Source: Cyanidioschyzon merolae (Eukaryota). Taken from it: DNA of 64,000 bases. The stretch is taken from NCBI GenBank assembly GCA_000091205.1, contig AP006483.2. The stretch is one strand, 5' to 3'. A program made the translations under genes and the position numbers. Below, piece by piece: positions 6,100 through 58,416 of this stretch (the first letter of the stretch is position 1; every line of letters begins with the position of its first letter). The notes under the pieces are model-generated. The model worked only from the letters and a program-made list of their open reading frames with translations. It was not told the DNA's origin and did no database searches.

Positions 6100-8600
6100 T
6101 TCTGCAACTGCTTCCCTGCGCACAAGTCGGCGCGATAGAGCACGCCACACCGATCGCCTGCTTATCGATGCACCGACGTGCACAAGTCTCCCAGTCTTTT
6201 TGACCGGCTCCCTGTTACCGGTTTCAACTTGTTCTTCTACGTTTCTACCTTGAGAGGCTGACCGACAAAGTTGTCTCTCGTCAGTTCCAGGAGTCTCTTC
6301 TCCAGCACGGCATAGCTCTTTATATTGATAGAAGCACTAAAGTCTCGGTTCACGCACTCCAGGCGTTTCTCGTCGCCGCTTGTACTCACCAGTGCAGGGA
6401 GTCCTCGAACCTGTGCCCTGCTTTCCATTTCCTGCCCTTCCGTCACCGCTCCGTACTTTTGGATATCCCCAGGGCTCCTTTGGCACTTTTCCATCTCAAC
6501 CCTCTGAAGTGTACACCCTAGCTCGTGATGAATGGATGACGTTCCGAACGCATTTATCAGTATCGAAACGAAAAGGTGTGCGCAGTCCTTGTACGCTCGT
6601 GTCGACGGAGCTGGTATACAACCTTTTGTGGACGCCCAGCGTCCTGATCCGTATGCTAATACGAGCATTTTACGCTTGTCCTCCTTGAGGGCCCTCAACT
6701 CATTGAAGAACTTGTCAAATGCACGCTGCTTTCCTCTGTGCAGACGCATATGCAGACGAGCCCATCTGGTCTTGGTGTACTGTTGCCACAGCGCCTCCCA
6801 ATGAGCAGTACAAACTTTCATGAATTCCAGAAAAGCCTCAAAGTCCGCTCCTCGGCTAGTCACCTCGCTCAAAGCTTCCAGGTGCTCTTTCACTCCTCGA
6901 TTCTATTCCTTAATTTTTTCCTCGCGTTCATTTTTCCGGATTCTCGATCGTATCTTGCTCTCGAGAAATTTAAAAGACACATGTCTTCTGACGTAAGCTG
7001 CCGTCAGTGCCATCTTCCGCACGCTTGGGTGCTGCGATGGTCATGATATTCGTGTCCCCAGGGTCCGCGCCAACGACATTGTCGTTCTCCTGGACCTCCT
7101 GCATCACAGGATCCGCCTCGTATATATGTTCATGTTTCGTCGCGGGCGAAGCCGGGGACGGAACTGGACGATCTACCTTCAAGCACTTATAATCTACAAA
7201 TATGGCTACTCCATCACTTTTGATCATCCCAGGGAATAACTTTTGCTTGCTCACTTTGAGGCGTTCGAAATCGAACATATTCTTCCAGTACGTCTCCCGG
7301 TTTTCACCGGAGAACTCGAAATTCCTTACATCGAACTCTGGACTGATCTCCTTCATGATGCCATGAAGGACGCTCGAGTCGATTGCCACAATATCTGACT
7401 TGACGGTGCACAACGGAGCGACATGGAAGCGCTTACCCATTAGGGCAGCCTCCCGTCTCTCCGACTCTTCATTTTTTCCCCACTCAGCTTCATCTCTGCC
7501 TTGCGTTCGAGTTCTCGGTCCAAAAACACAAAATACCGTAGAATGAGGCGATAGTATCTTTCCGTATCCTTTTTCAACTCTGATATCTTTTCTACTGGAT
7601 TCGCTAGCCCCAGTACCGCACGACGCTCTTGAATAGACGCACGGATTCCAGAAGCTTCATTCCTTCTCATGTGTGATGTCTTCTTGTCTACGGATTCGAT
7701 CCTCTGTTCATTCTCCCTATCGTTCGTGATGCCATCGATGGTGACCCATCTCGCCCTGTGAGGCAGGGCCGCCTATAATGCAAACGCGGTGCGTATCATG
7801 AAACGTTCGAGGTTCATAGTCATATCGCTCATCAGGTACGTGGGGTACTTCATCGCTCCGTAGGTGCGAATTCGCCAGTCTCCCCTCTATCGAGTACCGT
7901 TGAGGCGGTATTCGGCGTACTTTTTGTGCAGTATACACACTCGCGCATTTTTCGTCGACATATCCCAGGTGCTTACCATCCGGTAGCGTATAACGGTCTC
8001 GTTGAAAAATTCCTCCGGAACCTCGACTTTTTTGGTGTCCGTCACGTTGTTGTATATCTCTTTTACCAAATGCACTAGTACTGGAAAAGCCTTTACAATA
8101 CTCAAGGAGTACGACTCGACACGGTTTCCGATGGCCTCTCGCAACTTCTGCTTGTACGGATCCTTGATACATCCAAGAAAACGAGCTTTCACTACCATCT
8201 CGTCGTACTGTCGTCTTTGATGCAGGCATAGACGTCTGGGATCCTGTCTCAGCTTCTTGGACGTGTCTTGTTCCTCTTTGCTCGGCACTGTTCTCCGTTT
8301 TCTTCCGGCAGCCGGTGACACCAGGCCTCCAGGATCCTCTACTTCCTTCTCCACAACTTGCCTTTTTTCTATAATTTTAGATTGAATGCTCTTTGAACGC
8401 CTCTGCTGTAAACAGTGTAAAATCACTTGAATTCACTAACTTGAGGGTCGAAGCATAAGTGAACTGAAAACTATACTTTGTTATGACTTGAATGTAAATA
8501 CAAGTTGTGCGTTAGACACCAAGTCAACGAATGATCAGGATCGCATATCCCTTCAATGCCGAGATGCTCGTCGCGTCTGATGCCTCCAAGATGCGGAAAT
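6100..8600 (-). mobile_element. Fanzor/TnpB-like element, copy A (degenerate; interior of window)
   Basis: Homologous at DNA and protein level to the elements at 54.5-57.4 kb and 60.6-63.1 kb. It shares the conserved 5'-flank block (8460-8520, ...gaactgaaaactatactttgttatgacttgaatgtaaatacaag...) and the conserved block just 3' of the stop (6150-6236, ...gacgtgcacaagtctcccagtctttttgaccggctcc...). Boundaries are approximate, taken from where inter-copy similarity fades. Confidence 0.6.
6237..8426 (-). pseudogene. TnpB/Fanzor-like RuvC nuclease ORF broken into at least 5 frame fragments (7887-8426, 7717-8229, 7440-7670, 6970-7440, 6237-6893)
   Basis: Fragment 6970-7440 ends in the RuvC-I-like motif VVGADPGDTNIMTIAAP. 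Fragment 6237-6893 carries ...HELGC..EKC...C followed by the RuvC-III-like VNRDFSASINI. The expected RuvC-II YEFRTS motif reads INAFGTS here (acidic residue lost). Frameshifts occur at about 7440 and about 7890, with a gap at 6894-6969. Confidence 0.6.
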
Positions 8601-11226: not shown

Positions 11227-12246
11227 GAACCGATCCCTCGTCTCGGTGGTAAGCGCCGCGGTGCTGCTGCCGCACAACTGCAGCTGTGCGCGATCTGCTG
11301 CCGTCGAATGCCGTCGACGACGCGCTGTGCCTGCGGGAACGCGCAATGCCCTGCAGACGTCATTCGTTTGGGCGTCGTTGCTCCGGAAATGGGCGTCAAA
11401 GGGTACGCTCCTTGCGACGAGCTTGCTTGTTTTGGTCCCTGATACTGTGCTTAGCGTTTCGCGGAACCCGCTTCCGCATACATTCCCAGAATGGCGACGA
11501 CGGCGCAGGAACACGGACGAGGTCCGAGCGTCCGAGAATGCCAACAAGCGGTAAGCGTTTCTCCAGCGCTTCAAGTCTCATTGTTGTACCGCGACGCGAC
11601 CAAACATACCACGTACTAGAAAAGAGTACGAACGCGCCCTGAGCTGCATATCGTGACCGGAACACCCATGGCGCTGCAGCACCACGTTCGCTAGGGGCTT
11701 CAGTTTTCCGATCGTATATAGAGATGTTCTCGGGGATGCGTCCAGTTGTCATATCTACGGAGGATCGTGCCAGGCACATATTCATCGCTCCGAGCACGCA
11801 TAATCTGCCTATGCTTCGCTTTATCCGTATGTGACAGCATGCCGATCAAGTGCCCCGTACCCATAAAGCCAATCCCCATCGAAGCCGTATTTTCATAGCA
11901 CTCGCATTCGGAACGCTCCCAGGATAGACGCACACTCCAGGTAGGACGTGTACGCTGTACACACGAGTCTATGCATGCACGATTCACTGATTTCTTCGAG
12001 CAAATGTTCATGCATGCATGCATGCACTGCGATGGACACGTCACCCGCAGCCTCGACGAGTGCACGCATCGTGCGCACGCATCGTCGGGCAACGGCTGTG
12101 CGTACAGCGCTCGCTGCGCGCACACGCTCCCTCCGCACTCATTGATTCATTCTCTTTCGTGTTTTTCACGCGACAACGTGCGTGCGCTACTGTACAGGAA
12201 CGTGCGCAAGAGCGTTCCGGTACACCCCGGAGCACTTGGTGCACCC

Positions 12247-13086
12247 ATGGGTAACCGACCCTCCACGGAGCGACGGCTGGCGGGTGATGCAACTCGGCAA
12301 CCGCCACCGCCGCCACCGCCTGGCAGGTCTGTGAATGCACGCAACGGGCCGACTTCATCGACGTCGACCACGTCAGTACCGTGGATGCCGCAACAAGCTC
12401 CAGGCCCTGCATCTGAGTCTCCGCCAACCTTTACAATGGCGGCAGGCACGCGACACATATACGCACCGAGTCTGCCGATACGGCCGCTGACCGAAGTACC
12501 CTACTATCCGTACCTGCGGTATCGGGTTGTTGTCGAAGACGAGTACGGTTCGTTGCTCGTAGTGACACGGGAGGGTCTTCGTCGTCAACGGGATGCCATT
12601 CGAGTTGCTTGTGAAACGGAAGCAGATCCTTACGCACTCATCGCGCTGGCCACGTGGCAGCAACGCAAAGCACGCGTGAGTCCAGTGGAGCTCGACCAGG
12701 TTTGTCCGCCGCAGCGCTTCGCATCGCTGGAGGCCAACGACGCCCACACTGTCGAGACTACAGCTGCGCAGACTTGATCTATCTGTCTGGAGAACTTCGC
12801 ACCGGAGTCTGCTGTTCGAAAACTGCCCCGATGTGGTCATGTTTTCCATGACGATTGCATTCGCGGTTGGGCATGCCACAAGCGTGCACAGTGCCCGGTG
12901 TGCCGAACCTGGGTTCTTGACGACGCTGACATGTTGCGACGTTCCATGGCCGAGGCAGCGATCAGGGCTGAGCTGCAACATGCAGCCCTTGTCGAAGAAC
13001 GAATACGGGAGTACTTGCGTCGTCAGGTTGCTTTATCCAGAGCATGCGGTTGCCGAACCGATACACAGGTTCCGAACGGAACCTGA
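12247..13086 (+). CDS. RING-H2 zinc-finger protein (N-myristoylation-type MGN start), interrupted by an in-frame TGA at 12775-12777
   Basis: The same frame continues on both sides of the TGA: ...DAHTVETTAAQT[TGA]SICLENFAPESAVRKLPRCGHVFHDDCIRGWACHKRAQCPVCRTWVLDD.... The stop sits exactly where the first Cys of the C-x2-C RING pair is expected. A poly-Pro and Ser/Thr-rich region lies upstream. Confidence 0.55.
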
Positions 13087-13097
13087 ACAGTCTCGGG

Positions 13098-15087
13098 TCA
13101 GAATTTGTTTTCTGAACTGAACACACACTCTCGAAGACGCGCTTTCAGATGCTCGAAGGATTCCCTTTCATCGCGAACCTGTCTTACGAGTCGGTACCAG
13201 CGACTCGGAGCGGAGTCGGGTGATTCCATGGACGCTTGTGATTGCGGATCATTCGGGGACTGGCGATTTTCCGCTGGTAACGCCCCAGCAAAGCCCCACG
13301 AGGCAGCACAGCGCGTTTGCTGCGGCCAAAGCGTTGCAGGAACGAGCATATCCGCTGCCCCAAGCTCCGTTAAATGACGCACAACCCAGCCCGCCAGCTG
13401 CGTTTGCAAATAGAACGATTCATGCTGCTGGTTTGCGTCTGTCATGGTAGCTTGCAGGGTCGTTACGCACTGCTCTGTGATCGTTGCGATTTGATAACAT
13501 GTCTCCGCGTGGCGCGAGTTCGTTCGGACATCGGCCCAGCGTCGAAGCGCACTGGCCCAGCTCGCCCAGCGTGAGGCAATACCCGCAACGCCACTTGCGG
13601 TGAAGCTGGTGTCTGTGGGCGCGTCACGAGTCGATTCCGCAGCCACCGTTGGCACATCCGTCTCACTCAGCTTGAGAAGCACAATCGAGAGCGGTAGCAT
13701 CGGCATTGGCTCAGAAATACAGGGGAATGAGATGCACTGGGTTTGGAACCAGTCCCACAGAATGTCGAAAGAAACGTTTTGTGTATGGCGGACAGCAAAA
13801 CATGCAAAGGCAGATTTGCGGTTCTCGTACACGAGCACTGTATCGTGCAAATGTTTTGTGCACGAAATACCCTCAGGCGTTGCTCTCTTTGTCGTCATTG
13901 CTGACGTTGGTGTTGGTGTTGTCGTCGCCAGTGGCGATAGCATCATGAGCACCACCAGCGGGAATCGTCGTTGGCGCGCAAAATCCGTGGACATCTCGGT
14001 CGCTTTCGATCGAATCACTTGTTTGAGCGGAGACGCGCACACTGATGGTGCGTCACCGCGCACCACGGCCAGCAGACCAGCCAGGTTATCGGGACACATG
14101 TTCCCTGGCAAAACAAGCTGCAGCTGTTGCCGCTGATGCTGCGCATACGACTCGGAATCATCTTGCTCGTTGCATCGGATACAGAGGTCCTGACAGAGTC
14201 CTTGGACGAGGTCTTTGCACACAATGTCGTGCGGGGGCCACCAGACACCAATCCGCAGGTCTCCTGCTAGGGATGATGCCAGACGCAGTACCGCGAAGGT
14301 CTCAGGTGGCGGCGCAGTTTGCTGCACGCGCGGGCTTGTTGATGGATGCTCGGGCGCTGCAGCGGCCGCGACCGGCGGTAACGGCAGCGACACTAAACGA
14401 GTCAGCGGACTGGGGCGAAGTACCAGCTCTTGTACGAGGCGATCACGAAGCAGGCGTTGTGTCTGTGCGATGGTGGCTTCTTCACGGAGCTTGGAAGCCG
14501 CCTGGACCGCACGCTCAACAGCGCTTTGATACGCAGCGATTTGGCGGAGTAGGCGGTTGATTCGTGGGCCAACCTCTGAAGCCGGTCGACTAGCTGCGCT
14601 CAGTTGCGCAGCAGTCTGTTTGAGCTGACCCAAAACATGATGTGTTTGCTCTAGACGTGATTCGAGCTCGGTCAATTGCTCCCAGAAAGATGATGGTAGT
14701 GCGCCACCACGCTCACGCAGATTTTGCGCAAGATATCGTTCTAGCATGAGACCAGCGAGCACCAAGTACTCGATGGCATAGGCGGGCTCGTGGCGCGCCA
14801 GGAGCCACTGCGCATCCAATTGTTCCAGGGCTGCTTCGACTTGCTCATCGTGTGCTGCTTCCATTCGCACCAGAGCAGCGCCCGTGGGCGGTATGGGCGG
14901 CGGCATTGCCGTCACCGGGCGCTCGCGTGGCACGTCACTTGGTGCGAGGGTTTTGTCATCGACAGCCACCGAGGAGTGCTCCAGCCCAGACTCGCGCCCT
15001 GTTGGCGTTGCTCGCGTCTGGTGTGGTGTCATCAGTGCTGGGATCGCTTCAATAGGCGCTCTCTGGACGGCATCCGAGGCCATTTCT

Positions 15088-15126
<39 letters not shown>

Positions 15127-17900
15127 TCTGTAGCCTGCCTTTGAGCCTTGTTGTCGAACTGAAAAGACGCGGGCGCTGGCTTCGTAGGCGGCACGATTCC
15201 TGTCTGCCCTGTTGACGACCATGGCGAGCGTGCAACCGCACGCTCCGATACCTCCTCCGGCCGTATGGTGCGTTGCGAGGTCGGTCCCATCACCGCTGCG
15301 GCAGCTTGTACTGGAGCGTTCACAGCTGCCGTAGCAACTGCGTTCCATTCGCGCCGCCGGCTGCCTTCAGCTGCAGCTGGCTGTTGCGCATCCGCGGCAT
15401 AGGCGTCTGCGGCAGAAACTTTGCCTCCTCCACTGATAGACGCCGTCGGGGTGTTGGTCCCAGTTTGGAGCAGCAGCGGCCGCGCATCCTGCAACCTCTG
15501 CGCTCGTTCCGAGTCGTGCACGTCTCGGTCAACACCAGCAGTACATTCATGCATCTGGGGCGTTCCGACTTGTGAGCCAAATGCTACCGGCTCTTTTGTT
15601 GCTGCTTCCGGAGATGGACGCGGTTCGAGAAGCGATTGCGCGTTGCGGACACATGCAGTTGGCAAGTCCACCGAGATGCCGTTGCCACTGCCGCTGCCGC
15701 TGCTGCTGCTCGCCATCTCGTTACGAGGGCATGCGTCCGACCACTTTTCGCCACCAGCAGCGCCAGGCACGCCGCTTCTCAACTCCACGCTCATCTGATG
15801 CGAATCGCTTCTATCCTGAGAAAACGGCGCCGAGTTCGCCGTTGCAGGCACGGCCACGTGCGGGTCTTTGGAAGCCACTTGTCGTTCGGAACGCTGTCTG
15901 GCGAGCTCAGCAGCTATACGCTCCCGCAAACACTGCTCCCGGGATGCGGGCGGCACCTTGCCTTGGATAATTTCACTGGGTTTGAGGCCCAGCGCCTTGC
16001 GTTCGACACAACGCTGGCCTACGAACCAGTAGAGCGGTCGCAAGGTCGCCTGTGTGGCGTCGGCTGTCTTTGCACGCAGTCTGGACACGTGTGGCTCCAG
16101 TGTCGCAAGCGCGACGCTGTCACCGTCGACGGTAACGTGCAAGTCGCAGCTCCGCAGGAATGCTGCTGCATCGTCATCATCATCAAAGGCAAGCAACGAC
16201 ACCAGCGCGCTGAGAGGCCATACTTCCTGACGTGCTGCGGCACGAGCCAACTGCTCCAGCGCCCACAGCCGCATCATACCAAAGTGCCGATGCATCATAC
16301 ACGCTTGGAGGAAGGAGACTTGCGCGAGCAATCGACCGAAAAACGCCTGAAAATCGCCAGCTTGACGAGCCCGAATCACTTGCAGTGCAAGCTGAACTTG
16401 CTCACTGTGCAGTGTCTCCGGATCGAGTTCGCGCAGGATCTGGATGACGGCGTCGTTGCGGTTCTGGAGTAATAGATAGTACGCCTCAAACTCGCTTCGA
16501 TGGGCACTTACAGAACGACCCTGTCGAGCGGCTTCTCGATAGAGGTGACAAAGCGCTAATAAACATTTGTCAAGCTGCTCCATATTCTGTTTTGAGGAGA
16601 AGACCTCTGGTCCAGTGACGGCCAATCGATACTCGGCGAGGATGTGAAAGCGTACGCACTGCTCATGCACCCAGGCACAGTTGGTGTCATAGATACCCTG
16701 GTACGTGAAATCCTGTCGAATACTGCGTGTTCGATCCCGTAAGAACGCGTAGACTTCGTGAAATGGAACATCTTCACGATCCACAATATGCTGCAACAGG
16801 TATTCCATTGTCTGACGCAACACGTGCGGTGGGCGCACTTGTTCCGGACGCACGGCTTCTGCACCGGCAGCCGGTCGCGCAAACTTTTTCACCATGAGTT
16901 GTGGGTTCGGCTCGAGGGTGCGCTCCGGGTTCAAACTCATTTCGAGAACATGCACGTCACGTTGCATCCGACGTTGGTGTTGCTCCTCCAGGGGACACAT
17001 CATCAGGCAGGTACCCAGGAGCGCAGGTTGCGCATCCAGCGGCAACGGCAGCGCAGTGGATGCGCTGCTCCCAGCCTGTTGCTGAGAGTCTCCGTGCTCC
17101 CCAGAAGCGAACACGGGCTCCCGATGCTTCGTCCAGGGATCGGTTGTGGAACGAGCGTTTGGTGGCAGGGCGTCGCTTCGGAGGGTCTCGTCGTGCTGAG
17201 CATTCAGGTCTTCATGATGGGCGTCACTGTGTGCAGTGGTTGTTGCGGGCATCGATGCTTGAAAAACACTGATACGCTGCTCTGGAAACGTACCGACAGT
17301 GGAAGCTGTTCGTGATGCGGTTTCCCAAGTCTCGTTCAACGTCCCGGGTAGTGCTTGATATCCACTGGTCTGGGTCGGCGGCGGGAAAGCGGCAGCTTCT
17401 GTGGTCGAACGAGTTATCGACTGCAGGGATGATTTGGCGGCGTTGACAGATGCTCCTGCTGACGTTCCCGTACGCTCTTCGGGAATCATCGCTGGTCCGA
17501 ATGCGTTCTGAGGAGGATACGCAGCTTGCCAGCGCTGCAGGGACGCTCGTGCTGCAGGCGGGATATAGTAACGAAGGCGAAAGTTCGGTCGGTTTCCCAG
17601 CGCAGAGGTGGTCGTGTTGGGAGCCTTACGAAGCGCTGCAGCTGCAGCTCTTTGCGTCTGAAACTCTATGAGCGCGCTCCGTTTCTGCGGACGCACCTGC
17701 ACGCGGGTCACTTGTTTGGGTACCACCTGTTCGAAGTATGTGCGAAGGCGCTCTTCATCGCAGTACGCTTCAGGGCACTGGAGCAGCAGCAGTGTCCGGC
17801 CACGGTACCGCACCTGTCCGGTTGGCGAGAGGTAGATCTGACCTTCATCGGGTAGCGCTTCGAGTACTTTGCTTCTTTCGTGGAACTCAGCGGTGTCCAT
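13098..17900 (-). CDS. SAC3/GANP-family nuclear mRNA export protein (N-terminal RRM-like region plus SAC3 homology domain)
   Basis: 1600 aa from ATG 17900. The SAC3/GANP signature LLGTCLMMCPLEEQHQRRMQRDVHVLE...PHVLRQTMEYLLQHIV...FHEVYAFLRDRTRSIRQDFTYQG is present. An N-terminal RRM-like fold (RTLLLLQCPEAY...RSALIEFQT) precedes it. The C-terminal half is long, Ala/Ser/Pro-rich and low in complexity. Confidence 0.8.
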
Positions 17901-54614: not shown

Positions 54615-56943
54615 TCAAACGACGAACGTCGCCGCCGGCCGTGTACGGTAGTGGAGGGAAAACCGCGCCTTGGACAAATCGTCTCCAACTGATGTGCAGA
54701 CGCCCCCCGCCTTTCTCGACGAGCCACCCACTACTGCTTCCAACTTCTTCTCATATAGTTCGACTTTGAGAGGTTGTCCAATAAAATCCTCTTGTGTCCA
54801 CTCTGGAGGTCGTTTCTCCAGCACCGCACATCTCCGTATATTGATAGCGGCATGAAAATCTCGGTTCACGAACTCCATACATTTCGTGCCGTTGGGAGCT
54901 GTACTCACCAATACGAGTAACCCTTGAACTTTCGCCTTCCTTTCCATTTGCTCCTCCGCCAGCGGTCCGTACTTTTGCAATTTCCTCAGCGCTCTTCTGG
55001 CACTTTTCCATCTCCACCCTCTGAAGCGTGCAGCCCAGTTCTTGGTATGTATAGGACGTCCGGAACTCATATACAGGTATCGTAACGAGACGCCGGGCGC
55101 ACTCCTTGTACAGCTTCGTCGCTGGAGCTGGCGTAGTTCCTTTTCTGTTCTTCCAGCGCCCTGCTCCATACGCTTCTACGAGCCTCTGACGGTCATCCCC
55201 CTCAAAGGCGCTCAACTGATTGAAAAAATTCGCAAACGCCCGCTGCTTCACACCGTATAGATTCATTCGCAGACGAGCCCACCGGGGCTTTCTATACTCC
55301 TCCCACAGCGCATCCCAATGGGCAACACGAAATTCCATGAATTTCCGAAAAGCTTCATGGACCGCTCCGCGGCTCGTCGCCTCGCTCAAAGCTTCCAGGT
55401 GATGCTTTATTCCTGCATTCCACGTAACGATTATCATCCTTGCATTCACTACAACGGATTCTCGATAGTATCTCGCTCTCGAGAATCTCAGCAGACGCAT
55501 GTCTTTCTGGCGTAAATTACCGTCCATGCCATCTTCCGCACGCTTCGGTGCTGCGATGGTGATGATATTCGTGTTCCCAGGATCCGCGCCAACCACAATG
55601 TCTTTATCCTGCACTTCCTGTGTGGCAGGATCCGCCTCTTTCTTTCCTTGATGCTTCGTCGCGTCAACCATAAAGTCGTTATCCTGCACATTCTGTTCGG
55701 CAGGATCCGCCTCCTTCTGACCTTCATCCTTCACCGCGCCAACGACACGGTCGTTATCCTGCACTTTCTGCATCACAGGTTCCGCCTCTTTCTCTTTTTC
55801 ATCCTTCACCGCGTCAGCGACAAAGTCGTCATCCTGCACCTCCTGTGTCGCAGGATCCGCTTCTTTGATTTTTTAATGCTTCGCAGAGGGCGAAGCGAAA
55901 GGCACAATCGGACGGTCCACTTTCAAGCGCCGATAGTGTACATACAAGGTTACTCCATCGGTCTCGATCAACGCAGTGAATACCTTTTGGCTTCTCACTT
56001 TGAGCCGTTTGAAATTGTAGATGTTCTTCAAGTACGTCGCCCGGTTTTCACCGGTGAAGTCATCCCTGCTAACAGTGAACACTGGACTGATCTCCTTCAT
56101 GATGCCGTAAAACACGTCCGAATCGATATTCACGAAATGTGACTTGATGCTGCACATTGGAACCACGTTGAAGCGCTTACCCATTAGGACAGCCTTCCGT
56201 CTCTCCCAATCTTCTTTTTTTTCTTCACTCAGCTTCATCTCCGCATTTCGCTCGAGTTCTCGGTCCAGAAACACGAAATAGCGCAGAATAAGACGATAGT
56301 ATCTTTCCTTATCTTTTTTCAACTCTGATGTCTTGTATGTTGGATTCGCCGGCCCCAAGATTGCACGGTGCTCTTGTATAACCGAATGGATTACAGAAGT
56401 ATCATTCGTGCTGTCGTTAAACGCCTTCGTGTCGACGAATTCGACATCACCTTCATGCTTGCGATCGTTCTTGATGCCATTGATAATCACCTATACTCCT
56501 TTGCGAGAGACGCCCGGGTAAAGTGCAAACACGGCGCGTATCATGAAACGTTCTAGGTTCATTGTCAAATGGTTCGTCAGGTTCGTGAGGTTCTTCATCT
56601 CCCCATAGTCGTAAATACTCCGGTCCCCCTTGTATCGAGTACCCTCGAAGCCGTAAAAGGGATGTTTTTCGTGGAGGGCATGAACCCGCTCGTTTTCCTC
56701 CCGCGCTTCCACTGTTGCAAGCATCAGGTATCGAATAAAGGTCTCGTCGAATAACTCGTCCAGAATCTCGACCGTTTCCATGTACGTCACGTCGCGATAC
56801 ATATCCCTCGCAAAATGCATCAGCCCTGACCATGCCTTGATAATACTCTTGGAGTACGAGTCGACACGTTTTTCGATAGCGTCTCGCAAATTTTCCCTGT
56901 AAGGATGCTTGATATGATTAAGAAGACAGGCTTTCACCATCAT
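54615..56943 (-). pseudogene. TnpB/Fanzor-like RuvC nuclease, about 770 codons: one in-frame TAG (56491-56493) and at least two frameshifts (fragments 56491-56943, 55873-56490, 54751-55839, 54615-55169)
   Basis: RuvC-I motif VVGADPGNTNIITIAAP (Asp codon 55582-55584). RuvC-II-like VYEFRTSYTYQELGC...EKC. RuvC-III-like CMEFVNRDFHAAINI (Asp codon 54858-54860). The long N-terminal region is homologous to copy A. The protein end GQPLKVELYEK is conserved in all copies. Confidence 0.65.
55579..55875. repeat. 75-bp tandem repeat (about 3.5 units) inside Fanzor-like copy B, encoding 25-aa acidic repeats (QDNDxVVGAVKDEGQKEADPAEQNV)
   Basis: The units atcctgcac(t/a)t(c/t)ctg...caggatccgcctc(t/c)tt... 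begin at 55606, 55681, 55756 and 55831. Copy A has a single unit at the homologous position. Confidence 0.85.
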
Positions 56944-58416
56944 CTCATTCTACAGTCATCTTTCCCGCCGCCTTCGACCTAGGGCCTCCCGCTTTCGGTT
57001 CTTCTTCTTTTCCTGTTCTTCTGGACTCGGCTCTGTTTTTTGTTTTTATTTCTGGCAGCAGGCGACACTGGGCCTCCGGGATCGTCGACTTGCTTTTTCA
57101 TAGCTTTTCTTTTCATTTTTTTGTGTGAAAAAGAACGCTCTTTGAACCCTTCTATTATATACTGCGAGAAATCAATTGAATATGTTTACTTGAGGGTTGA
57201 GACACAATCGAACTGGAAACTATGATTTGTTACGACTTCCACGCAAATACAGCTTGCCCGTTAGAACATCAAGAAAACGTGTCGTCACGGTCGCGTTTCT
57301 CTTCGAAGGCGACAGATGCGTCGTGTCTCGCAAGTGCCATACTTGGAGATGCACGTATCGAGCGCGCCATACAGGAAAAAGGACAGTGACCTACGATTTA
57401 CAAGAAACGATATAAAATTTTTTCCCGCTCTACGATAAGCGTTTAAGGGGAAATAGATCGCCGTTCTATCGGAAGCTTATGTTCGAGGCGGAAGGTCCCG
57501 CGAGCCGGTCGAGTCTACCGGGCTAGAGCTCGGTATCCCTCTTAAGTGGCTGCTGCCGCTGCTGCTGCAAGACCTGCGTAGCTCGTTCGCAACGCATTTT
57601 ATCCTGAGACTATGCACAGGATGCTGCGTTGGGCCTCGCCCTGGTCGCAGTGGAACCCTAGTACAGCACTTCGCGCTGACGCAGGTAGTACGTCTTTCTG
57701 CGCACTTTGCATGTTCCCAGAATGACAAATAGCCCTGATTCCGTTTCAAGTGAATCATTCCTCGAGCGGACGCCCTTAGTGGTATGGCAAAGCCGTTCTG
57801 TCTCTGTACAGCACCTGCTTGAGCGGTATAAGCGCTACAGCGGGTGCTCACAACAGGCTCGGCGCTCGATAGAACATACGAAACGACCAGTATATCAGAG
57901 AGGTAGTATGGATAATGGGACTTGAGGACAGGTGCACTATGATCGAGATATCCCCGGAAGCCATCGTGCGTTCCGAATTCTGGGATGCATGGGCAATGCA
58001 AACGTTCTTTCATCGAAAAGAAAAAAACGCTCCGGAGGCGGACTCGTCATCGAGACGCGCATCGCTCTGGATCGAATCTCCGGAAGGCGCTTCTGGGCGA
58101 TCGCGAAAGCGCTCAAGCGCATCTTTGTGTCCTCAACGGATAGCATGATTTATTCGGGGCGCTCAGTCTCGAGCGTTCCCTCTGACTTAAAGCAATAGCT
58201 TCGTGGATCCTACAGCTGTGTTGTCAAAGAGCACTGTACCTAGTTTTGGCGAGGCCTATAGTGCTGGAGAACAAAACGATCACGGGTTTGTAGCGATCTC
58301 GGCACCAGTGCTGGAAACAACCCTGCACTGGAGCTCGGGCGATCTGAAACCTGTAGTCGGACTTTTTCGAGGATCTGTCTCGCAAGGAAACAAATCGTGG
58401 AACTGTGCTCTTTGGA

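What the first reader, a model, noticed from the sequence alone, without database searches (positions are those of the whole stretch)
12247..13086. RING-H2 E3-ligase-like gene with an in-frame TGA exactly at the first zinc-ligand cysteine
Upstream and downstream of TGA 12775-12777 the same frame reads ...ETTAAQT * SICLENF...PRCGHVFHDDCIRGW...CPVCR. Replacing the stop with Cys gives a textbook C-x2-C...C-x-H-x2-H-x2-C...C-x2-C RING-H2. This is a single-nucleotide TGC/TGT-to-TGA change. The possibilities are a nonsense pseudogene, a sequencing error, or, least likely, a recoded Sec. There is essentially no 3' UTR for a SECIS, because the convergent GANP gene ends 11 bp downstream.
Basis: seen in the sequence. 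Interest (0 to 1): 0.5.

Follow-up and report, generated by a model that had tools for sequence, protein, structure and literature searches.

The report
Premature stop in red-alga RING ligase gene
In the reference genome of the model red alga Cyanidioschyzon merolae 10D, one base (C to A) turns the first zinc-binding cysteine codon of a conserved ubiquitin-ligase-type gene into a stop; this is an ordinary strain-private knockout or a base-calling error, not selenocysteine recoding.

Summary
TGA at 12775-12777 sits exactly where a RING-H2 finger needs its first Cys. The 102 codons after it still hit Pfam zf-RING_2 at E=1.3e-11.

The window is C. merolae 10D chromosome 1. GenBank annotates the gene as CMA129C, a truncated 268-aa hypothetical protein.

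All 25 distinct conspecific environmental contigs (99.2-99.6% identical DNA) read TGC. Sister species read TGC or TGT, and Cyanidium also has Cys. The A at 12777 is therefore derived and private to the 10D record. It is the only private change in the gene and one of 26 private SNPs in 21 kb.

The N-domain plus RING architecture is shared across Cyanidiaceae and is under strong purifying selection (dN/dS about 0.05-0.1), so this is one gene.

No SECIS was found, either with Rfam models at E<=10 or with my own pattern scan.

Real allele versus reference error cannot be settled here, because no independent 10D data were reachable. Published resequencing gives only 288 reference-specific SNPs per 16.4 Mb, which favours a real allele. 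I estimate about 0.6 real, 0.35 error and 0.01 Sec. Interest is low.

The parts
12247..12774 (+). Part of the CMA129C coding sequence before the premature stop (176 codons, MGNRPS...ETTAAQT).
   Evidence: The start MGNR(P/V)(S/T) is conserved in Cyanidiococcus and in a third species. There is no Pfam hit.
12247..12267 (+). Met-Gly-Asn-Arg-Pro-Ser-Thr, a candidate N-myristoylation signal (G-{EDRKHPFYW}-x2-[STAGCN]-{P} right after the initiator Met).
   Evidence: Regex match. The motif is conserved as MGNRVT in L005 and L006. Myristoylation itself is inferred, not shown.
12496..12705 (+). Conserved lineage-specific N-domain (VPYYPYLRYRVVVEDEYGSLLVVTREGLRRQRD...VELDQVC).
   Evidence: Nearly invariant among three species. 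Recognisable in Cyanidium caldarium (P0020, E=3.3e-11) and in an unnamed lineage (P0021, E=2.1e-7), in both cases followed by a RING-H2. dN/dS is 0.07.
12775..12777 (+). In-frame TGA at the first zinc-ligand position. A at 12777 is private to the 10D reference; the ancestral codon is TGC (Cys177).
12775..12903 (+). RING-H2 finger (residues 177-219). Seven of the eight ligands are encoded, and there is no in-frame ATG between the stop and the finger.
   Evidence: Pfam zf-RING_2 E=3.4e-12 with Cys restored and E=1.3e-11 without the first residue. Regex match. dN/dS for the RING plus C-terminus is 0.05-0.10.
12904..13086 (+). C-terminal conserved helical tail (MLRRSMAEAAIRAELQHAALVEERIREYLRRQVAL...) and the normal stop TGA at 13084-13086.
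   Evidence: Invariant block in the alignments. Predicted as a helix in a low-confidence model only.
11971..12246 (+). N-terminal extension in the GenBank annotation of CMA129C (the 268-aa product starts at 11971). It is probably 5' leader, and it crosses a (CATG)n microsatellite at 12009-12026.
   Evidence: Exact match of 11971-12774 to BAM78819.1 / XP_005535105.1. An 8-bp indel polymorphism in the repeat shifts the upstream frame in wild contigs. Orthologues start at MGNR.
13087..13097 (.). 11-bp spacer between the two convergent stop codons.
13098..17900 (-). Convergent SAC3/GANP gene. Any 3' UTR of the RING gene must run antisense through its coding sequence.
   Evidence: Pfam SAC3_GANP E=3.7e-91. 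The synteny CKS-Tim17-RING-SAC3 is conserved in all relatives.

Best explanation
Strain 10D, the sequenced laboratory clone of Cyanidioschyzon merolae, carries a recent private C-to-A transversion. It converts codon 177 (TGC, the first zinc ligand of the RING-H2 finger) of gene CMA129C into an ordinary UGA stop.

The gene otherwise encodes a conserved, Cyanidiaceae-specific protein. It is probably N-myristoylated and consists of a lineage-specific N-domain, an ATL-like RING-H2 finger and a C-terminal helix, so presumably a membrane-associated E3 ubiquitin ligase.

Translation in 10D would stop after 176 residues. The product would keep the myristoylation signal and the N-domain but lose the finger and the tail: a loss-of-function allele, possibly a ligase-dead decoy. 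Reinitiation cannot rescue the RING, because no in-frame ATG lies between the stop and the finger.

Shown here: the lesion, its polarity, its privacy to the 10D record, the unity of the gene and the constraint on it. Inferred: that the base is truly present in the strain, the myristoylation, the ligase activity, and the fate of the truncated product.
For: - Identity of the window: ORF 11971-12774 is the exact 268-aa CYME_CMA129C of strain 10D, chromosome record of 422,616 bp.
- Polarity and privacy: 25 distinct conspecific contigs from JGI, Logan and ENA samples, 99.2-99.6% identical (one is 93.5%), all read TGC. Sister species read TGC (L005) and TGT (L006). Cyanidium and one further lineage have Cys.
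- Background of real divergence: 26 10D-private SNPs in 21,081 aligned bp, with no private indels. The private branch has an N/S ratio of 0.41-0.50, like the wild pN/pS of 0.44, and is transition-biased. It therefore looks like natural divergence rather than noise.
- Reference error rate: published resequencing of two 10D descendants found 288 SNPs shared by both against the reference in 16.4 Mb (PMC7291098). That predicts about 0.4 such sites in 21 kb, against 26 private differences observed.
- One gene under constraint: the same architecture occurs in P0003, P0002, P0020 and P0021. dN/dS is 0.05-0.12 on both halves. Wild polymorphism in the gene is 4 synonymous to 1 non-synonymous.
- Recency: 12777 is the only private change in the gene.
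Against: - No independent 10D reads or assemblies could be reached. Exact look-ups of 10D-specific products return only the NCBI record, so the base rests on one published sequence.
- A stop in a strongly conserved gene, at its most critical codon, is what purifying selection should remove. None of the 98 wild coding polymorphisms in the region creates a stop.
- The reference is known to contain gene-breaking errors. The CMO228C/Tic236 single-base deletion was confirmed by resequencing (PMC7291098).
- About 5 of the 288 reference-specific SNPs are expected to create stops: 3.55% of coding substitutions times a coding fraction of about one half.
- My odds of about 2:1 for a real allele rest on assumed frequencies of natural nonsense variants, not on data from this species.
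Confidence: 0.6

Rival explanations
1. The A at 12777 is a base-calling or assembly error, or a mutation confined to the sequenced DNA preparation. Living 10D cultures would then carry TGC and make the full-length 279-residue RING-H2 protein, and the truncated 268-aa GenBank model CMA129C would be an annotation artefact.
For: - The change is unique to one record among 26 sequences of the species.
- It hits the most constrained kind of codon in a gene with dN/dS of about 0.1.
- No secondary lesions are present.
- 288 SNPs and 81 indels are shared by both resequenced descendants against the reference, including the known gene-breaking error in CMO228C/Tic236 (PMC7291098).
- About 5 stop-creating reference-specific SNPs are expected genome-wide.
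Against: - Reference-specific SNPs run at about 1.8e-5 per base, about 70 times rarer than 10D-private differences from wild relatives, which run at 1.2e-3 per base.
- The surrounding 21 kb shows no frameshift or other private ORF-breaking difference that would mark a low-quality stretch.
Confidence: 0.35
2. The UGA is recoded as selenocysteine. On this reading 10D makes a full-length RING protein with Sec as first metal ligand, which would be the missing selenoprotein of an organism that keeps Sec machinery.
For: - The UGA aligns exactly with Cys in all homologues, a Sec/Cys pair.
- C. merolae is reported to have tRNA-Sec, SBP2, EFsec, SecS and SPS2 but no detected selenoprotein. Unusual SECIS elements or lineage-specific selenoproteins have been offered as explanations (PMC2375036; PMC7539508).
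Against: - The UGA is absent from all 25 conspecific contigs and from all sister lineages. It is therefore a very recent private change in a gene that never needed a SECIS.
- No SECIS family matched at Rfam gathering score in the window, nor at E<=10 in 11500-16500 or 12700-14200.
- My loose SECIS-like pattern scan found 0 candidates in 3.2 kb downstream. It had no positive control.
- There is no unusual RNA structure after the UGA (z=0.11) or in the first 300 nt past the normal stop (z=-1.1).
- The position is a structural zinc ligand, not a redox site (general knowledge).
- PSTK is reported missing in C. merolae (PMC6627142).
- Lobanov et al. ran a genome-wide Sec/Cys-pair search on this genome and accepted nothing.
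Confidence: 0.01
3. The stop is real but leaky. Near-cognate decoding of UGA (by Cys-, Trp- or Arg-tRNA) would give a small amount of full-length protein, some of it true wild type, so that 10D is a hypomorph rather than a null.
For: From general knowledge, UGA is the leakiest stop codon, and Cys is one of the residues inserted at UGA by near-cognate tRNAs in yeast and mammals. C. merolae is reported to lack all classical nonsense-mediated-decay factors except UPF1, so the mRNA may be stable (PMC6173133).
Against: The base after the stop is U, not the C of known leaky contexts (the context rule is general knowledge). There is no stimulatory structure downstream. Nothing here measures readthrough. 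At best this is a side effect of the nonsense allele, not a programmed mechanism, since the codon is TGC in every relative.
Confidence: 0.03
4. There are two independent genes: an N-terminal 176-aa gene ending at a true stop, and an unrelated RING ORF downstream.
For: GenBank annotates only the upstream part.
Against: The two parts are one uninterrupted ORF in 25 conspecific contigs and in Cyanidiococcus, a third species, Cyanidium and P0021. There is no in-frame ATG between the stop and the RING ligands. The first ligand would be missing.
Confidence: 0.005

Closest known systems
ATL-type RING-H2 E3 ubiquitin ligases of plants (consensus recalled from memory)
   Same: The finger, with Cys restored, matches C-x2-C-x13-P-x-C-x-H-x-F-H-x2-C-[IV]-x2-W-x6-7-C-P-x-C-R. 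This includes the Pro before C3 and the Trp after C6 that ATL fingers use for E2 contact. Pfam zf-RING_2 scores E=3.4e-12.
   Different: There is no transmembrane helix (maximum Kyte-Doolittle 19-residue mean 0.82) and no GLD motif. Instead the protein has a Met-Gly N-terminus (putative myristoyl anchor) and an N-domain found only in Cyanidiaceae. It is a resemblance of the finger, not membership of the family.
Gene-breaking discrepancies in the C. merolae 10D reference, e.g. the single-G deletion in CMO228C/Tic236 (PMC7291098)
   Same: Both are a single-base lesion in the published 10D sequence that truncates a conserved gene model, and both can be detected by comparison with relatives.
   Different: The Tic236 case was shown by resequencing to differ from the living strains.
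Sec/Cys pairs in eukaryotic selenoprotein families
   Same: An in-frame UGA aligned with a conserved Cys in homologues.
   Different: There is no SECIS, the UGA is not shared by any relative, and the residue is a structural zinc ligand.
Strain-private premature-stop (loss-of-function) alleles in laboratory reference strains
   Same: It is a single derived nonsense SNP with no secondary decay. The gene is intact and constrained in the rest of the species.
   Different: Nothing is unusual, apart from the coincidence that the hit codon is the first zinc ligand.

Membership tests
RING-H2 zinc finger (Pfam PF13639 zf-RING_2) | Eight metal ligands C3H2C3 with canonical spacing, as encoded in this window | tested here: not met
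   Seven of the eight are encoded. Ligand 1 is TGA at 12775-12777.
RING-H2 zinc finger (Pfam PF13639 zf-RING_2) | Eight ligands with canonical spacing in the ancestral or wild allele and in orthologues | tested here: met
   TGC or TGT in all relatives. The regex matches residues 177-219.
RING-H2 zinc finger (Pfam PF13639 zf-RING_2) | Profile score above the Pfam gathering threshold (27.3 bits) | tested here: met
   46.8 bits with Cys restored and 45 bits for the post-stop part alone.
RING-H2 zinc finger (Pfam PF13639 zf-RING_2) | E2-dependent ubiquitin ligase activity | not testable with these tools
   Needs an in vitro ubiquitination assay.
ATL family of RING-H2 ligases | RING-H2 variant with Pro before C3, F-H, Trp after C6 and C-P-x-C-R | tested here: met
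   Regex match. The consensus was recalled from memory.
ATL family of RING-H2 ligases | N-terminal transmembrane helix | tested here: not met
   The maximum Kyte-Doolittle 19-residue mean is 0.82, below 1.6.
ATL family of RING-H2 ligases | GLD motif | tested here: not met
   Absent.
Eukaryotic selenoprotein gene | In-frame UGA aligned with Cys or Sec in homologues | tested here: met
Eukaryotic selenoprotein gene | UGA shared by close relatives or orthologues | tested here: not met
   None of the 25 conspecific contigs and none of the 4 other lineages has it.
Eukaryotic selenoprotein gene | SECIS element in the 3' UTR | tested here: not met
   No Rfam SECIS match at gathering score or at E<=10. 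My own pattern scan found 0 hits in 3.2 kb, without a positive control.
Eukaryotic selenoprotein gene | Complete Sec machinery in the genome | not tested
   Literature only. tRNA-Sec, SBP2, EFsec, SecS and SPS2 are present (PMC2375036). PSTK is reported missing (PMC6627142). There is no tRNA in this window.
Unitary pseudogene | Disabling lesion | tested here: met
   A premature stop removes 37% of the protein, including the RING.
Unitary pseudogene | Relaxed constraint or secondary lesions, and fixation in the species | tested here: not met
   12777 is the only private difference in the gene. The gene is intact in all other sequences. dN/dS is about 0.1.
N-myristoylated proteins | Met-Gly start with G-{EDRKHPFYW}-x2-[STAGCN]-{P} | tested here: met
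   MGNRPST in C. merolae and MGNRVT(S/A) in two other species. The pattern has low specificity.
N-myristoylated proteins | Covalent myristate on Gly2 | not testable with these tools
   Needs metabolic labelling or mass spectrometry.

The most novel reading that the evidence does not exclude
The UGA in 10D is decoded as selenocysteine through an unrecognised, non-canonical SECIS lying antisense in the SAC3/GANP coding region. CMA129C would then be the first selenoprotein of C. merolae, an organism long noted for keeping Sec machinery without any known selenoprotein, and the first RING finger with a selenolate metal ligand.
Probability: 0.007. Interest if true: 0.85.

Novelty: new member of a known kind. 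Interest (0 to 1): 0.12.

Why it matters
The value is mostly practical.

1. CMA129C is annotated as a 268-aa hypothetical protein. That model starts too far upstream and ends at a lesion, so it hides a conserved Cyanidiaceae-specific RING-H2 ligase.
2. If the stop is real, the standard laboratory strain of this model alga is a natural knockout, or a ligase-dead truncation, of that gene. C. merolae reportedly lacks classical nonsense-mediated decay, so the truncated product may actually accumulate. Phenotypes of 10D may then not represent the species.
3. If the stop is an error, this is one more correction to a reference described as 100% complete.
4. For selenoproteome searches in C. merolae, which has orphan Sec machinery, this locus is a tempting Sec/Cys pair. 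It should be recorded as a false positive.

Tried and rejected
- **Genetic-code reassignment or many in-frame TGAs.** The organism is C. merolae, which uses the standard code. Neighbouring long ORFs are intact. A scan for stop-split long ORFs found nothing similar with support.
- **An intron spanning the TGA.** Rejected, because all relatives read collinearly through the site with a Cys codon.
- **SECIS.** Rfam at gathering score on the whole window, Rfam at E<=10 on 5 kb and on 1.5 kb, and my own pattern scan were all negative. The own scan had no positive control.
- **RNA structure near the stop or after the gene.** Not different from shuffles.
- **Independent 10D sequence.** I ran exact-product look-ups for the 268-aa, 255-aa and 176-aa truncated products, and for the 10D-specific WD40, SAC3 and small-ORF products. 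I also read all reachable contigs carrying the full-length product P0012. Only the NCBI record carries 10D alleles. Every other contig carries wild alleles at the 10D-private markers 11564, 11774 and 13685.
- **JGI metagenome pattern scan with N at 12777.** It gave two contigs, both TGC.
- **Structure prediction** of the Cyanidiococcus orthologue with a 3-sequence alignment gave mean pLDDT 50.6. That is too poor for fold search, so none was run.
- **Literature search for CMA129C.** No paper found. No supplementary SNP table is held for the resequencing paper.
- **Bacterial promoter and terminator scan.** Irrelevant for this organism and empty.

Full report
**1. The observation**

From ATG 12247 the frame gives 176 codons ending ...ETTAAQT. 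Then comes TGA at 12775-12777, then SICLENFAPESAVRKLPRCGHVFHDDCIRGWACHKRAQCPVCR..., down to a second TGA at 13084-13086.

With Cys at the first TGA, residues 177-219 satisfy the RING-H2 pattern and Pfam zf-RING_2 scores 46.8 bits, E=3.4e-12. The 102 post-stop codons alone score 45 bits, E=1.3e-11. They align from profile position 4 of 44, so exactly the first ligand is missing.

The convergent 1600-codon ORF at 13098-17900 (minus strand) is a SAC3/GANP protein (E=3.7e-91). Its stop codon lies 11 bp from the RING gene's stop.

**2. Where the window comes from**

ORF 11971-12774 is, residue for residue, BAM78819.1 / XP_005535105.1. This is 'hypothetical protein CYME_CMA129C' of Cyanidioschyzon merolae strain 10D, on a 422,616-bp record. 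The neighbouring WD40 and CKS products are likewise exact 10D proteins. The truncated model is therefore already in GenBank, but no paper in the library mentions the gene.

**3. Relatives**

A protein search found a full-length form with Cys at the site (P0001) and orthologues in Cyanidiococcus yangmingshanensis (P0003) and in a third species (P0002). The synteny CKS-Tim17-RING-SAC3 is the same in all of them.

I retrieved 25 distinct conspecific contigs from JGI metagenomes, Logan SRA assemblies and one ENA assembly. They are 99.2-99.6% identical to the window, except one at 93.5%. Every one reads TGC at 12775-12777. The two sister species read TGC and TGT. Ten conspecific protein variants all have Cys.

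The A at 12777 is therefore derived and private to the 10D record.

**4. One gene, under constraint**

A full HMMER scan with the 113 residues before the stop found the same N-domain in four other places at most:
- Cyanidiococcus (P0003);
- Cyanidium caldarium (P0020, E=3.3e-11);
- one unnamed Logan lineage (P0021, E=2.1e-7);
- a fourth, weak hit (P0022, E=1e-4), a 1022-aa repetitive protein with no RING in its sequence, which I treat as spurious.

In P0020 and P0021 the domain is followed by a RING-H2 that begins TCLIC.

All three close species start with MGNR(P/V)(S/T), which fits the N-myristoylation pattern. There is no transmembrane segment and no GLD motif. The finger itself fits the ATL-type consensus, which I recalled from memory.

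Nei-Gojobori dN/dS against the sister species is 0.10-0.12 overall, 0.07 for the N-domain and 0.05-0.10 for the RING plus tail, with dS saturated. Wild polymorphism in the gene is 4 synonymous to 1 non-synonymous. The hypothesis of two unrelated ORFs is refuted.

**5. Is it selenocysteine?**

The question deserves care. C. merolae is reported to keep tRNA-Sec, SBP2, EFsec, SecS and SPS2 while no selenoprotein has been found (PMC2375036; PMC7539508). PSTK is reported missing (PMC6627142).

The evidence against Sec is as follows.
- Rfam finds no SECIS at gathering score in the window.
- Rfam also finds none at E<=10 in 11500-16500 or in 12700-14200.
- A loose SECIS-like pattern scan of my own finds nothing in 3.2 kb downstream, although it finds 26 chance hits in the whole window on both strands. 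It had no positive control.
- Folding after the UGA (z=0.11) and after the gene (z=-1.1) is unremarkable.
- Most important, a UGA that no other member of the species has cannot rely on a pre-existing SECIS. The residue is also a structural zinc ligand.

I put Sec at about 1% or less.

**6. Real allele or reference error?**

In a 21,081-bp alignment (window 2012-23092), 10D has 26 private SNPs and no private indels. Another 339 sites vary among the wild contigs. 12777 is the only private difference in the RING gene and the only ORF-breaking one.

In well-supported genes the private branch carries 5 missense changes, 1 nonsense change and 4 synonymous changes. That is a ratio of 0.41-0.50, like the wild pN/pS of 0.44. 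None of the 98 wild coding polymorphisms creates a stop.

Sato et al. resequenced two descendants of 10D. They found 288 SNPs and 81 indels shared by both against the published sequence in 16.4 Mb, including a known gene-breaking single-base error in CMO228C/Tic236 (PMC7291098). That is 1.8e-5 per base, or about 0.4 expected in 21 kb against 26 private differences. A random private difference is therefore about 70 times more likely to be real than reference-specific.

Conditioning on 'nonsense in a strongly conserved gene' narrows the gap. About 5 reference-specific SNPs genome-wide should create stops, given that 3.55% of coding substitutions do so. My assumed number of real private nonsense alleles in conserved genes is of the order of 6-12. 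This gives roughly 2:1 in favour of a real allele. That figure is an inference resting on assumed frequencies.

**7. The search for independent 10D data**

Exact look-ups of every product a 10D-derived contig should encode returned nothing beyond the NCBI record. The products tried were the truncated forms of 268, 255 and 176 aa, and the 10D-specific WD40, SAC3 and small ORFs.

The full-length product P0012 is what a 10D contig would encode if the reference were wrong. All contigs read for it carry wild alleles at the 10D-private markers 11564, 11774 and 13685. Read support therefore could not be tested here. The accessions that would settle it are DRX207478, DRX207477, BLLC00000000 and BLLD00000000.

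**8. Mechanism and consequence**

If the stop is real, 10D makes at most a 176-residue protein. It would probably be myristoylated and would lack both the finger and the tail. No in-frame ATG allows separate expression of the RING.

C. merolae reportedly lacks classical NMD factors other than UPF1 (PMC6173133). The mRNA and the truncated product may therefore persist, and the product could act as a ligase-dead decoy. Low-level near-cognate readthrough of UGA could restore traces of wild-type protein (general knowledge), but nothing suggests it is programmed.

**9. Verdict**

This is an ordinary single-base premature stop, or a reference error, in an otherwise intact, conserved, lineage-specific RING-H2 gene. 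It is not recoding. Interest is low. Its use is for annotation and for users of strain 10D.

Noticed in passing
window 11971-12246, with (CATG)n at 12009-12026: The GenBank CMA129C model starts 276 nt upstream of the conserved MGNR start. This extension crosses a CATG microsatellite with an 8-bp indel polymorphism that changes the upstream frame in wild contigs, so it is probably not translated.
   Followed up: partly
L006 6001-6830 (Cyanidiococcus yangmingshanensis VWRR01000020.1): The NCBI model F1559_002244 (P0003) ends ...EVRLPD through a predicted intron. The uninterrupted ORF reads ...EYLRRQVVLSRGCGCRTEAQASNGT* like all relatives, so the intron is probably a mis-annotation.
   Followed up: partly
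window 54754-56949, minus strand: Three same-frame stop-free segments of 152, 205 and 373 codons are separated only by TAG (56491-56493) and TAA (55873-55875), in a lower-GC stretch. None has a Pfam hit. This could be a decayed gene, a mobile-element relic or chance.
   Followed up: partly
window 6245-8426, minus strand: A run of four short adjacent ORFs without Pfam hits lies in a GC-poorer stretch (about 0.51). It has 1-bp and 14-bp indel polymorphisms among wild contigs and four 10D-private non-synonymous changes. It is possibly non-coding or a degraded element.
   Followed up: no
window 15088-15682 (SAC3/GANP, minus strand): In-frame length polymorphisms (6, up to 60, and 12 bp) occur among conspecific contigs at the poly-Ala (GCN)n run. 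SAC3 products range from 1596 to 1611 aa.
   Followed up: no
window 2012-23092: The Italian laboratory strain 10D differs from all retrieved environmental contigs by only about 0.12% private SNPs and is 99.2-99.6% identical to them overall. 10D-specific alleles never appear in any metagenome or SRA assembly that was reached.
   Followed up: partly
L022 (JGI 3300050366, Ga0506594_000018): One contig is only 93.5% identical to the window over 8.6 kb, yet it encodes the same 203-aa Tim17 and a 367-aa RING protein with TGC. It may be a more divergent Cyanidioschyzon lineage or a mosaic.
   Followed up: no
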